A DNA stretch of 10,992 nucleotides, taken from contig JBIKWQ010000092.1 in the NCBI GenBank assembly GCA_044356215.1, positions 1 through 10,992 of the forward strand, given 5' to 3'. The position numbers are program-made. Shown piece after piece: positions 6,001 through 10,992 of this stretch. Within the stretch, counting starts at the first letter, position 1. Every line of letters begins with the position of its first letter. This DNA comes from Bdellovibrionota bacterium (GTDB lineage Bacteria > Bdellovibrionota_C > UBA2361 > OMII01).

Positions 6001-9000
6001 TCATAGACGATTACCCCTGATGGTTGTGCTAACGACGTTGGTTTCTGGCTTTTTGGCTGTACTCGCGGTCCGATATACTTGCGGAGATCTACTGGAGATT
6101 CTCCATGTCCAAAGAAGTGACCTAGGGCCGGGCCTATTAAAGCGGCTTTTAACTCACATGAGTAAACTGGTGGTTGTCGCTTCGTCCGTTTTAGCTATAC
6201 TGGTTGTGTTTGGTTATCGTTTCGGCCTTTTGATTAAACCACAGAGTCGGGGCTAGAGTCAGACTATTTTTCAGATGGGCGAGATCTGGCCACGGTGTGA
6301 GTATTTACCGAACGAGATCTACAGGGTGTATTTTTATGTCAGCATCTCCTGATCCATTCTCACTTTCGCCTCTTTTGGCGGTTCTTCCTAGGCTTGGGAA
6401 TGTATCGAGACTAGAGACGTTAGTATCTTCTCTCTTCGCCCGCTTTGAATCGCTCGACGCTCTGCGCGAAAATGTTGATGGAGCTGAGGCAAGAGCGCGC
6501 TTGGCCCATGAGGCGGCGATGCTAAGGCAGATTCTCGACTGGCTATCTGTTAATCCCGATGAGGAGAGCCACAATGAGTAACGAATCTTCAGCGGTAGAG
6601 TCACACAGATCAAACTACTCAAAAGAGGAGCAGCTGGATATCTACGCGTTAGCGAGGATGTGTCTTGAGTCAGGTCAGGTCAAGCGAGCGCAGGTAATTC
6701 TGCGTGGGCTTACAACAGTCGCCCCTGAGTTTGTTCCAGGTTGGCTGGCTACCGCTGTGACGCAAGCTACTCTAGGGAATATAGAGCAATCTTTAGATGC
6801 GGCTAGACAGGCGCTAAAACTGCAGCCTGATTCACCGATAGCTATGATAATTCTGGTAACAACCTCTCTAACGCTAGGTGACCAGAGCACTGCTGGTACA
6901 TATCTGGGCGAGTTAAATGAGATGATCGAGCAGGGAATGGTTAGTGATCCGAATCTTATTAGGCTCTTTAAGATGCAGATGGTTCGGTATAATTCGCCGA
7001 ACTCGTAAGAAAGGAGCGAAAAGAGGAGAGCAGCGAATCGTTGTCTTTAAGCAGATCGCTTGGACTCCCGAAATCAATCAGGCGCCCATTCTTTAGGCCA
7101 AGGATCAGATCGGCGTCCATCACAGTTGGCAATCTGTGGGCCACTATGAGAACTGTGGCGCCACGAAGTTCATTCCGCAGAACGTTTTGAATCTGATAGT
7201 CAGCCTCGGAGTCTATTGACGCGGTAGCCTCATCAAGAATTATCACTTTGCTCTTTCTCAGAAGAGCGCGCGCAAGAGAGATTAATTGACGTTGGCCAGC
7301 GCTAAAATTAGCACCGCCTTCACGGACATCCGTGTTTAGTTGATCTGGGAGAGACACTACCAGTTTTTTTAGACCAACCCGTTCCAGGGCATCCCAGATC
7401 TCCTGGTCTGAGCAAGCCTTAAAGGGATCGAGGCTCTCGCGAAGCTGTCCTGAAAATAAGATCGGTTCTTGCGGAACAACGGATAAGGCGCCGCGCAATT
7501 CGGACAGCGCGAGTGTTGAGAGGTCGATTCCATCGATCTCGATAGAACCAGAGGATGGTTCAACAAGGCGCAGCAAGCTCAATATAAGTGTACTCTTACC
7601 CGAGCCGGTACGACCGATTATTCCGACGCGACTGCCAGGGGGGATCACGCATGAGATTCTGTCAAGGGCCAAGGGTAGCTCTGGCTTATAGCGAGCGCTA
7701 AAATTCTCTAAGGTTATCGATCCGCGTGATGGCCAGCCAGAAGGGGGAGTGTTTCCGTGCGGCGATTCCGAAGGTGTATGCGCGTAGCGCTCAATCCGCT
7801 CATAAGAGGTTAAATTATTCTCGACCATCGATATACTGCGGATAGCCCAGACCATCGTGGATGTCATCATAATAGCGTAGGCCAGAGCCAGACCCGATAG
7901 AGCCACACCGGATGAAATTCCTAGATTAAGAGAGACACTTAACCCGATTCCTAAGATTATCGCGACCCCAACCGACTCAAGGCGAAGACCGAGCCACCTG
8001 TTAGTTGCAGTTTGTGTGTAGGTTATTCGGTTGTGGGCGTCTAAGGCTTTGGTGTATCTCGCGGTAAATATGTCGGCTAGCTTCGATGCTCTAAGTGCCT
8101 CTACACCGGCGAGGCACTCCGAGAGTATCGCGAAGATAGGGGATAGCGAGAGTGCGCTAAGACGCTGTAAATCCCTTGAGGCGGGCCTGAAGAATCGCGC
8201 CGCCAGATAATAGATGGCGGCGGCCGGACCGATAATCATAAACACCGCCGGAGCGACAAAGGTGACTATTAGGCATACAGTGAGTGTTTCTATCAGGCAG
8301 TGACCAGTATCAATAAGCGCCCGTGGAAGAGCGAGCTCGACGTTCTCAAGATCGCGACTAAACCTGTTTAGTACGCGGCCCACCGGATGAGACTCAAAGA
8401 AGTTAAGTGGCGCGTGAAGAATCCCATGAAGTAAGTCTTTGTGAGCCGATATCCCCGCTTTCATTCCAGCGCTAAAGACGCTCATCGTGCGAAGGTATCC
8501 AATAACTCCCAATAGAGTCACACATCCCAAATATCCGGAGAGGAATGTAGTCAGATCAACTTGCTTAACCCCTGACCAACTAGTCAGCCAGAGATCGGTG
8601 GCAAGCGCCGCACCTTGGCGACCTACAAAGAGTAGCGCTATACCGAACAAAGCGAAGCCGGGGGCCAATTTACGGAAATAAGATGTGACAGTGGCGTTGG
8701 ATACGGCGCCCGTCCGTCGCTCCTCAGTCTGAATGAGTGGTTCAGGTGACGCGGGAAACTCATCATCTCTGTCTACCTCCTCTTCCTGGGAGATCTGAAA
8801 ATTAGCTGACCTATGTTCGCTTGTTGTGAAAGAAGCCTCGTCACTTATTTTTTGGTGGAAGTGAAGGAGCTGTTTGAAGCGGTCGGAATGAGCTATCAGA
8901 TGCCGTGGTTCTCCCTGTTCAATAATCTCACCGTTATCAATTACTAAAACTCGATCCGCTTCCATGGCGAATTCGAGTCTGTGACTAACAACAATCCTGG

Positions 9001-10992
9001 TCTTATCTCGTAGCTCACCGCGGATAAGATTATTGAATACGTGTCGGGCAACTTGAGGATCGAGAGCGCTTAAGGGATCGTCTAGTAAATAGATCTCGGC
9101 GTTTTGGTAGACAGCTCGCGCTAGGGCCACGCGGTGGCGCTGGCCACCCGATAGGTTTATTCCGCGTTCACCAATTCGTGTCGCGTCACCGGCTGGTAGG
9201 TTTTGCAAATCAGGACGTAATCCCGACGCAAAGAGCGCCCGTTGATAACGTGAATTATCAAAATCTCCCCCAAAAGTTATATTATCACGAACTGAATCAC
9301 TTATAATCCAGGGGTGCTGAGGTACATAGGACACGGGACCTCCGAGAGACACGCTCCCCGAGTCGCTCGGTAGTTCTCCAAGGATACTTAAGAGTAACGC
9401 AGTCTTTCCGGATCCAACTGATCCTACTACTACGACTAATTCGCCACGAGAGATTGAGATGCCATCTTTTACGCGAGTAGCCTTCGCACCGCCCGAGGAC
9501 CATGTAGTCTTGAGATCTTGTATTATGATCGCCTCAGCCTGCTCTTTAATAACCTTAGTTGGAACGAATTCAGACGAGGTGAGAAAGGTATGAATTCGCT
9601 TCGCCGCTACGCTCGCTTCGACCACGCTGTGGACCGTCTCAGGGAGCATGTTCAGCGAGAAGCGTAGTTGCATAAATAGGGTTAAGACAGGGAAGAGTGT
9701 GGCGGCTTCTAAGGTCGCACCAGACCTTACTAATAAGATCGAAGTGGTAGCCATCGCCGCGGCTGGCGCTATGCCAGATGAGATGGCGAATAACGCCGAT
9801 AATCTGGCTAATTTAGCCGCTATCGCCGCTTCCTCTTTACGTAGGGAGTTAATCTTATTTTCTAGGTTGGCTTCCCATCCCTGGGATTTGGCGGCCTTTA
9901 TGTGAAGAAGAGTCTCTCTTGTAAGCCCAACTCTGCTGTCCGCGATGCGAGAGAGCCTAGAGCGCAGTCTTCCCTGCTCGCGCGCGATAAGAATCGAGAA
10001 GGATAGAAGTAGAGCTAATGTGCATCCTCCAGCTAGAGCGGGAGTACCAACGAGTCTGTATAGCAAAAAGATTATCGCTATAAGTGTTAGTGGGTGATAC
10101 CAGATGGAGTTTAAGAAGACGAATAAGTTTTGAATTTTTAAGGAATCAGTCGCCACCAAATTTACGATTAGTCCGGCGGACATTCGGTGCTGCTCTGATC
10201 TTTGCTGTCTAAGTGCTTTTTGAAAGATGAGGGCGTTAAGGGCAGCACGTAACCTAATAGCCATATTAGGCTGAAAGAAAAATAAGTAGTGTGAGCCAAA
10301 GATACCGATGAGCGATGAAGTGGCGAGTGTTATGGCGCATAGGATCGGATACGGAATATTCAACGCTGAATGTATCGCCGCGAATGGATCCCTTTCGATC
10401 CACTCTGGCGAAGAGGATCTATCGCTGAGGGCTTTTAGTAGCTCCCTTAATATGAGCGGGTTAGCTAACGCGACAGCTAAACAAACGAAGGAAAAGGCCA
10501 TGACAATCGCTATCGTTCCGATATAGCAGGAAGCCGCGGCGGCAAATAAAGAGAGGTAGCCGAAAGATTTAAATTGAGCCGCGGCGAGACCTAATCTTTC
10601 AGAGTCACCGGTAACTTCCATATGCTTCGGCAGCTTAGGAAGGTCTGACGGATTAAGTGGGGCTTTGTTAGCACTTCGTATGACCGGAGTGGCCCAGCTA
10701 AAGAGCAGCTTAGATAATAGAGATGGAGAGGACCTGGGCTGCATGAAGGATGATATTAGCAGATACGGTGTGGTTTGGAATGGAGGGAATACGGGGGAGT
10801 AGGAGAGAGATGAAGGGGTATGGGCGGAGGTTGATTCCTCAAATAATCCGGATCTCTCCCCGTGAACGTAAAGCGTTGCCCGAGGTCAATTTTTATCACC
10901 ACAGAGGACGCAGAGGACACAGAGAATAGGCCATTTTATGGGCAATTATGGAGTTTTCTCTGTGTCCTCTGCGTCCTCTGTGGTAAAAGTAT

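What a model noticed while it worked through the whole genome (the two positions that open the first line are those of the whole stretch)
6968..10744. Bacterial full-length ABCC/MRP transporter, sister to the eukaryotic ABCC family, beside its two-gene (split) precursor [...]
g02677 (1,258 aa) is a single-chain TMD-NBD-TMD-NBD exporter with the ABCC asymmetry (NBD1 Walker B 'DD', NBD2 degenerate signature). Its Bdellovibrionota clade is sister to all sampled eukaryotic ABCC/MRP; a Bdellovibrio clade branches below, and a two-gene form encoded in this same genome (g01834+g01833, C73:2092-5716) below that. The fusion that made ABCC/CFTR-type transporters thus appears to have happened in Bdellovibrionota-like bacteria, not in early eukaryotes.
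Evidence so far: After ~60 bacterial full-length hits the next relatives are animal MRP1; named full-length loci are Bdellovibrionota, Silvanigrellaceae, Bdellovibrio. Split pair carries the N-half and C-half motifs, in 16 of 61 phylum genomes. Separate N-half and C-half FastTree trees give the same ladder: split < Bdellovibrio full-length < (g02677 clade + eukaryotes), support 0.91 and 0.99 for the last node. IQ-TREE LG+C20+F+G4 on 44 N-halves: bacterial full + eukaryotes 98, g02677 clade + eukaryotes 99, eukaryotes 91 SH-aLRT. Eukaryote rows include green alga, chytrid, diplonemid, amoebozoan and animals.
(Added by a program. Inside this text positions count along the whole contig: contig position 1 is position 1 of the stretch shown here. 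"Call 12" and the like, gene names such as g00115 and contig names such as C1 are that model's own, and its searches are not shown. The text may have been shortened before it was handed on; [...] marks where a part breaks off. The agent that wrote the report below was given it as the finding of a first reader that could run no searches.)

Follow-up and report, generated by a model that had tools for sequence, protein, structure and literature searches.

The report
Bacterial sister of eukaryotic ABCC transporters
A predatory-type bacterium carries a one-piece pump built like the human MRP/CFTR family, and trees place it and its bacterial relatives just below all sampled eukaryotic members, which suggests eukaryotes inherited this transporter family ready-fused from bacteria.

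Summary
The gene is real: window 6968-10744 (-), 1,258 aa, lasso-TMD1-NBD1-linker-TMD2-NBD2, with the ABCC marks (NBD1 Walker B DD, NBD2 signature FSAGQ, 13-residue NBD1 deletion), no TMD0. It folds like MRP1/MRP4. My independent sampling reproduces and extends the ladder: MdlAB-type pairs < three split lineages < one fused clade, inside which B2 < B3 < (this protein's clade B1 + eukaryotes). Eukaryotes are monophyletic (SH-aLRT 100, UFBoot 100); B1+eukaryotes 98.8/100. Rooting on the eukaryote stem, which a eukaryote-to-bacteria origin needs, was rejected in all six AU settings (p<=0.016). Two corrections: the C73 split pair is a long-branch paralog on another contig, and its derivation by fission was not rejected in three reduced tests; and fused forms also occur in Kapabacteria-type, Nostoc-type and Rhodoferax genomes, so the gene moves between phyla and the donor is less certain than the bacterial fusion. 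ABCC10, CFTR, SUR, ciliates and kinetoplastids are not confirmed in my trees. Likely function: ATP-driven export of amphipathic anions through one active ATPase site; substrate untested. Nine literature searches found no description.

The parts
6968..10744 (-). Full-length ABCC/MRP-like exporter, 1,258 aa (P0001), clade B1
10595..10732 (-). Lasso motif (about residues 5-50, LLFSWATP core), no TMD0 before it
   Evidence: aligns with the eukaryote N-terminal motif; F/W/P core complete in 35 of 43 B1 rows; outside the folded range (model starts at residue 71)
9581..10522 (-). TMD1 (about residues 75-388)
   Evidence: Pfam ABC_membrane; helices in model; limits approximate
8849..9529 (-). NBD1 (about residues 406-632), canonical LSGGQ, Walker B D555-D556 at 9077-9082
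9320..9400 (-). Walker A to Q-loop spacer of 27 residues instead of 40: the 13-residue ABCC NBD1 deletion
   Evidence: feature described for MRP1 in PMC10305233
8741..8833 (-). Acidic disordered linker (residues 638-668), the fusion junction, followed by the EERRTGAV motif
   Evidence: pLDDT<50 segment; motif shared with eukaryotes and with the start of split C-halves
7775..8677 (-). TMD2 (about residues 690-990) with R916, E923, W966, R969 matching MRP1 R1197, E1204, W1246, R1249
   Evidence: limits approximate
7025..7723 (-). NBD2 (about residues 1008-1240): degenerate signature FSAGQ at 7292-7306, catalytic E1172 at 7229-7231

Best explanation
P0001 is a single-chain, asymmetric type IV ABC exporter of the short (no TMD0) ABCC build in a bacterium. 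Mechanism (inferred from motifs and from MRP1): inward-open TMD1/TMD2 bind an amphipathic anion from the cytoplasm or inner leaflet; ATP closes both NBD sites; the site made of NBD1 Walker A/B (Asp for Glu) and the NBD2 FSAGQ signature holds ATP without much turnover; the site made of NBD2 Walker B E1172 and NBD1 LSGGQ hydrolyses and resets the pump. History: an MdlAB/TmrAB-type two-gene operon diversified in Bdellovibrionota-like bacteria, gained the lasso, fused once in N-then-C order, fixed the 13-residue NBD1 deletion, and one fused copy related to B1 passed to a stem eukaryote, where it duplicated before LECA into the ABCC family. Shown: architecture, motifs, fold, tree order. Inferred: substrate class, direction of transfer (from the root), donor lineage.
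For: Eukaryote monophyly with B1 at its base in FastTree on 224 rows (1.0 concatenated, 0.996 N, 1.0 C), and on 97 rows with 10 added eukaryote-type rows chosen without the B1 profile (1.0, 0.997, 0.989). LG+C20+F+G4 PMSF, 58 rows x 1121 columns: eukaryotes 100, B1 99.8, B1+E 98.8, +B3 98.1, all fused 99.2, +S1/S4 98.3, +S2 95.1 SH-aLRT; LG+F+G4 UFBoot 98-100 on each. AU rejects 16 of 16 rival trees (p<0.02) and 12 of 12 with site profiles built on the rival tree (p<0.05). Root on eukaryote stem rejected with long branches dropped (p=0.003), SR4 recoding, N-half (0.001) and C-half (0.016). Six placements of B1 inside eukaryotes rejected (p<=0.001). Characters follow the tree: NBD1 spacer 40 in 22 of 22 MdlAB-type and 13 of 13 S2, 46-54 in S1/S4 with the ancestral helix kept, 26-41 in B2, 27 in 2 of 2 B3, 42 of 43 B1 and 41 of 44 eukaryotes; lasso absent in MdlAB/S2, present from S4/B2 upward. 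Bacterial diversity is deep: fused forms in 48 of 116 genomes of the Silvanigrella phylum and 42 of 301 of the Bdellovibrio phylum; isolates Fluviispira and Bdellovibrio sp. 22V carry them. Model pLDDT 82, Foldseek TM up to 0.91 to rice MRP5, 0.89 to MRP1 and MRP4.
Against: The root rests on a distant outgroup (branch 1.02 under C20) joining next to long split branches. On the C-half alone a clade of all fused bacteria sister to eukaryotes was not rejected (p=0.104). In the 97-row N-half tree the fused clade has only 0.527 and the split forms group together weakly. B1 was paraphyletic in one C-half tree and one millipede row jumped into B1 in another, returning with better sampling. The NBD1 deletion is homoplastic: split pairs S5 (29) and S6 (26, nested in S2) also shortened this loop. 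Distribution is patchy and crosses phyla. Most eukaryote rows were chosen as the closest to a B1 profile; ABCC10, placed in LECA by PMC13468126, CFTR and SUR are not confirmed in the trees. The C20 search stopped after about 10 iterations, and most rival trees were hand-built with only branch lengths optimised. MRP1 K332, H335, D336 and W553 are not kept, so glutathione-conjugate specificity is not supported.
Confidence: 0.75

Rival explanations
1. Eukaryote-first: the fusion happened in a stem or early eukaryote; Bdellovibrionota-like bacteria living with protists took the gene, and B3, B2 and the split pairs are increasingly diverged and fissioned descendants pulled toward MdlAB by long-branch attraction.
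For: Patchy, cross-phylum distribution; long branches of S1, S2, S5, B3; fission of S1/S4 from B2 not rejected in three reduced tests, and fused-bacteria monophyly not rejected on the C-half; S1/S4 carry a lasso-length N-terminus and the linker-end motif.
Against: Root on the eukaryote stem rejected in six of six settings, including a site profile built on this very tree. S2 has the 40-residue NBD1 spacer in 13 of 13 rows and S1/S4 keep the helix in 9 of 9 measurable rows, which would need re-insertion of a deleted helix.
Confidence: 0.1
2. Fusion was bacterial (B2, B3), a stem eukaryote took the gene, but B1 itself, including this protein, is an early back-transfer from a stem or unsampled eukaryote lineage.
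For: B1 and eukaryotes share the exact 27-residue spacer and lasso core; B1+B3 monophyly only marginally rejected (p=0.044); eukaryote sampling lacks confirmed ABCC10 and fast lineages.
Against: Six placements of B1 inside sampled eukaryotes rejected; B3, also with spacer 27, is bacterial and branches below; B1 spans three phylum-level groups plus Nostoc-type genomes with crown depth 1.32 against 1.07 for eukaryotes.
Confidence: 0.07
3. Fusion was bacterial, but in an extinct or unsampled lineage; Bdellovibrionota-like predators are a later reservoir that collected many copies, so they are not the donor.
Against: Every rung (S5, S2, S1, S4, B2, B3, B1) has members in the three Bdellovibrionota-labelled groups, and one Silvanigrella genome holds at least two fused and three split systems; non-Bdellovibrionota rows nest inside B1 or B2.
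Confidence: 0.08

Closest known systems
Short eukaryotic ABCC/MRP transporters (MRP4/ABCC4 build; core of MRP1/ABCC1, Ycf1, plant ABCC; CFTR and SUR in the same family)
   Same: Single chain lasso-TMD1-NBD1-TMD2-NBD2, degenerate first ATP site, 13-residue NBD1 deletion, about 32-33% identity, TM up to 0.91; TMD2 pocket R/E/W/R kept.
   Different: Bacterial host; sister to, not inside, the eukaryote clade; no TMD0; short linker; MRP1 K332/H335/D336/W553 absent; TIGR00957 score 813 against cut-off 1470.
Bacterial heterodimeric exporters MdlA/MdlB (SmdAB), TmrAB, TM287/288
   Same: Type IV fold, DD Walker B in the first gene, degenerate signature in the second, N-then-C operon order.
   Different: Two chains, no lasso, 40-residue NBD1 spacer; P0001 far below SmdA/SmdB cut-offs (277 of 845, 301 of 746).
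Published model of ABCC origin by heterofusion (Xiong et al. 2015, PMC4649718; passages read)
   Same: ABCC arose by fusion of two divergent halves, each with basal prokaryotic relatives.
   Different: That paper dates the full transporter 'in or before the LECA' and calls the basal prokaryotic genes half structure; here fused bacterial clades form the immediate grade below eukaryotes. Its supplement could not be read.

Membership tests
ABCC/MRP subfamily | Four core domains on one chain, TMD-NBD-TMD-NBD | tested here: met
ABCC/MRP subfamily | NBD1 Walker B Asp for catalytic Glu; degenerate NBD2 signature | tested here: met
   LLDDPLSALD and FSAGQ; feature per PMC10305233
ABCC/MRP subfamily | 13-residue deletion in NBD1 | tested here: met
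   spacer 27 against 40
ABCC/MRP subfamily | Lasso (L0) motif | tested here: met
   by alignment; not in the folded range
ABCC/MRP subfamily | Nested within the eukaryote ABCC clade | tested here: not met
   sister position; six nested placements rejected
ABCC/MRP subfamily | TIGR00957 (MRP) or TIGR01271 (CFTR) curated cut-off | tested here: not met
   813 of 1470 and 506 of 1761, though these are the two top models; a Naegleria ABCC also misses (1083)
ABCC/MRP subfamily | ATP-dependent export of organic anions or conjugates | not testable with these tools
   only pocket residues compared
Long MRPs (ABCC1/2/3/6/10, Ycf1, SUR) | TMD0 | tested here: not met
   no PF24357; lasso starts at the N-terminus
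MdlAB/TmrAB-type heterodimeric exporters | Two half-transporter genes, 40-residue NBD spacer, no lasso | tested here: not met
   P0001 is fused with spacer 27 and lasso; the C73 pair meets the two-gene criterion only

The most novel reading that the evidence does not exclude
The whole eukaryotic ABCC family (MRP1, MRP4, Ycf1, plant ABCCs, and by family membership CFTR and SUR) descends from one already fused transporter of Bdellovibrionota-like predatory bacteria, acquired by a stem eukaryote fairly late (stem 0.20 against crown depth 1.07); living relatives preserve the assembly steps: two-gene pair, lasso gain, fusion, NBD1 deletion.
Probability: 0.6. Interest if true: 0.85.

Novelty: new variant of a known kind. 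Interest (0 to 1): 0.72.

Why it matters
ABCC is treated as a eukaryotic family whose fusion is dated only to 'in or before LECA'. A bacterial grade of fused forms names where the fusion happened, adds a non-mitochondrial, non-Asgard donor to eukaryogenesis for a medically central family, and orders the gain of the lasso, the fusion and the NBD1 deletion. Cultured carriers (Fluviispira, Bdellovibrio) give minimal prokaryotic MRP models, plus natural split and fused pairs, for testing what these ABCC features do.

Tried and rejected
Eukaryotic contamination of the bin: rejected (GC, bacterial neighbours, no introns, orthologues in 27 genomes, isolates). Link to the upstream secretion cluster: neighbours differ in the four own-phylum B1 loci inspected for this, so no operon-based substrate clue. 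Plant-labelled top hit P0006: a multi-NBD ABCC4-like gene model, not B1. Viral carriers: none confirmed in two scans. Phylum of a Polyangiaceae-labelled genome: 0 of 251 with a B2 query, no positive control inside the set, so not found rather than absent. P0370 as ABCC10 candidate: nearest named relatives are haptophyte and cryptophyte proteins and MRP1, so not confirmed. NBD1 deletion as a clean marker: weakened by S5 and S6. Two treekit C20 runs and two full UFBoot runs did not finish; a 32-iteration run converged (0.998). No RNA holder was listed. The complex prediction for the split pair was not run. Earlier findings: none returned. Barabote et al. 2007 (Bdellovibrio transporter survey) is not held and Igarashi et al. 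2004 was seen only as a reference; either may mention MRP-like bacterial genes.
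Full report
Observation. The window holds an uninterrupted 1,258-aa ORF at 6968-10744 on the minus strand with two ABC_membrane and two ABC_tran stretches. NBD1 has a canonical LSGGQ and Walker B LLDDPLSALD; NBD2 has FSAGQ and LDEATASID. 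The best solved relatives by sequence are MRP1, ABCC2, plant ABCC2 and MRP4. An AlphaFold model of residues 71-1248 (pLDDT 82, pTM 0.81) matches rice MRP5, MRP1, MRP4 and SUR2 with TM up to 0.91. The contig is bacterial (GC 0.51 against 0.49; secretion-system genes upstream). The split pair lies on contig C73, N-half gene first, each half about 28% identical to P0001.

Distribution. In the own phylum, 27 of 124 genomes carry a full-length or contig-cut orthologue, all in the own order; 0 of 33 genomes of other orders. The split N-half has orthologues in 22 of 124. A second fused clade, B2, filled all 120 listed rows, with names Kapabacteria, Polyangiales, Ignavibacteria and Bdellovibrio sp. 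22V. By genome: fused forms in 42 of 301 genomes of the Bdellovibrio phylum (only 2 candidates scored per genome), 48 of 116 of the Silvanigrella phylum, matches in 12 of 151 of a Kapabacteria-type class, 1 of 201 of the Rhodoferax family, 0 of 251 of a Polyangiaceae-labelled genome's phylum. B1 includes Fluviispira isolates and Nostoc-type records; Fluviispira is Bdellovibrionota, Oligoflexia. One Silvanigrella genome has at least two fused and three split systems.

Eukaryote sample. It came from the best 150 representatives against a B1 profile plus named hits. Thirty look-ups named Anaeramoeba, Naegleria, Galdieria, Bryopsis, Cymbomonas, Spirogloea, Withania, Thraustotheca, four fungi, Chromosphaera and arthropods; 11 of 30 stayed unnamed. 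Tandem or chimeric gene models and one fragment (7 rows) were left out of the 224-row set; single units of two were used later. The 58-row set used 20 eukaryote rows, 16 with a eukaryote source label. Ten more eukaryote-type rows, unnamed and picked from metagenome contigs by likeness to a split N-half, were added. ABCC10, CFTR, SUR, ciliates and kinetoplastids are not confirmed in any tree.

Trees. FastTree on 224 rows gave MdlAB-type < split < B2 < (B1, eukaryotes), with eukaryotes at 1.0, 0.996 and 1.0 in concatenated, N and C trees; B1 was paraphyletic in the C tree. With 163 rows all fused forms formed one clade (0.999, 0.938, 0.992) above S1+S4, S2 and S5, with a further fused lineage B3 between B2 and B1; one millipede row jumped into B1 in the C tree and returned with better sampling. 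Under LG+C20+F+G4 PMSF (58 x 1121; search stopped near 10 iterations) SH-aLRT was eukaryotes 100, B1 99.8, B1+E 98.8, +B3 98.1, fused 99.2, S1+S4 99.1, +S1/S4 98.3, +S2 95.1. LG+F+G4 UFBoot gave 98-100 for each (32 iterations).

Topology tests. AU rejected 16 of 16 rivals, and 12 of 12 when the site profile was built on the tree rooted on the eukaryote stem (that root p=3e-5; fused-bacteria clade p<=0.003; fission p=0.003-0.013; B1+B3 p=0.044). Most rivals were hand-built rearrangements; two were briefly searched. In reduced data the eukaryote-stem root stayed rejected (12 long branches dropped p=0.003; SR4; N-half 0.001; C-half 0.016). Not rejected: S4 with B2 after dropping long branches (0.17), all splits with B2 on the N-half (0.26), S1/S4 with B2 on the C-half (0.074), and a fused-bacteria clade on the C-half (0.104). 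In the 97-row N tree the fused clade had only 0.527. So the bacterial grade below eukaryotes is robust, and the split pair's status as an ancestral state is probable but less secure.

Characters. The 13-residue NBD1 deletion and the lasso are described as MRP1/ABCC features in PMC10305233 (passages and section 2.1.2 read) and PMC8640958 (passages). Walker A to Q-loop spacing in NBD1 is 40 in 22 of 22 MdlAB-type and 13 of 13 S2 rows, 46-54 in S1/S4 (ancestral hydrophobic-Arg helix kept in 9 of 9 measurable), 26-41 in B2, and 27 in B3 (2 of 2), B1 (42 of 43) and eukaryotes (41 of 44). The lasso is absent in MdlAB and S2, degenerate in S1, present in S4, B2, B3, B1 and eukaryotes. Against: S5 (29) and S6 (26, nested in S2) shortened the loop independently.

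Mechanism. By established ABCC knowledge (PMC10305233, PMC7756269 passages) the first site binds ATP with little turnover and the second, with E1172, drives the cycle. P0001 keeps the equivalents of MRP1 F385, R433 (as K), F594, N597, R1197, E1204, W1246 and R1249 but not K332, H335, D336 or W553 (position list recalled). I infer export of amphipathic anions or lipid-like compounds, not specifically glutathione conjugates. Neighbours vary, so there is no genomic substrate clue.

Prior knowledge. Xiong et al. 2015 (passages) derive ABCC by heterofusion in or before LECA and call the basal prokaryotic genes half structure; Bdellovibrio does not occur in the main text and the supplement was unreadable. 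PMC13468126 supplement lists ABCC1, 2, 4 and 10 in LECA with a mixed origin for that system and no donor in the passage read; three of four PMC12872458 supplement files have no ABCC entry. Nine searches listed nothing on fused bacterial ABCC. JGI annotations already label several homologues 'subfamily C (CFTR/MRP)', and the Bdellovibrio transporter survey could not be read, so the presence of such genes may have been noted; the ladder and the sister relation were not found in print.

Verdict. A bacterial ABCC-type transporter, sister to eukaryote ABCC, within a bacterial grade that points to fusion in bacteria (0.75); Bdellovibrionota-like donor with preserved steps 0.6. New variant of a known kind; interest 0.72.

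Noticed in passing
window 49-7008 (+): Compact type III secretion or flagellar-export-like cluster: FHA/YscD, YscJ/FliF, FliN/SctQ, FliP/SctR by Pfam, then small membrane genes in the SctS, SctT, SctU positions without Pfam hits; the SctU-position ORF (5672-6256) is only 194 aa; a TPR protein overlaps the transporter's 3' end by 41 nt.
   Followed up: no
L159-L162, L164, L082 (G125): One Silvanigrella genome holds at least two fused and three split ABCC-like systems from different rungs of the ladder.
   Followed up: partly
L259:3066-6507, L315:3069-6534: Split pairs nested in the Bdellovibrio-type S2 clade with an independent NBD1 loop deletion (spacer 26) and DDPFSAVD.
   Followed up: partly
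L001:2095-3894 (-) and its orthologues: All five S1 C-halves checked have Walker B DEPT instead of DEAT, and S1/S4 N-halves carry a 6-14 residue insertion in NBD1.
   Followed up: partly
P0252 cluster; L084, L085: B1 gene in Nostoc/Roholtiella records and a divergent B2 gene in two Rhodoferax bins: probable later transfers between phyla.
   Followed up: partly
L087, L089, L100: Record titles say Hyphomicrobiales and Polynucleobacter, but the proteins group with Kapabacteria-named and Oligoflexia-phylum sequences; L100's protein start matches one from the Silvanigrella phylum, so these titles look unreliable.
   Followed up: partly
L236, L237, L233, L234: Very divergent fused forms in the Silvanigrella phylum (1,169-1,242 aa) with low scores to both half profiles, placed in B2.
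   Followed up: partly
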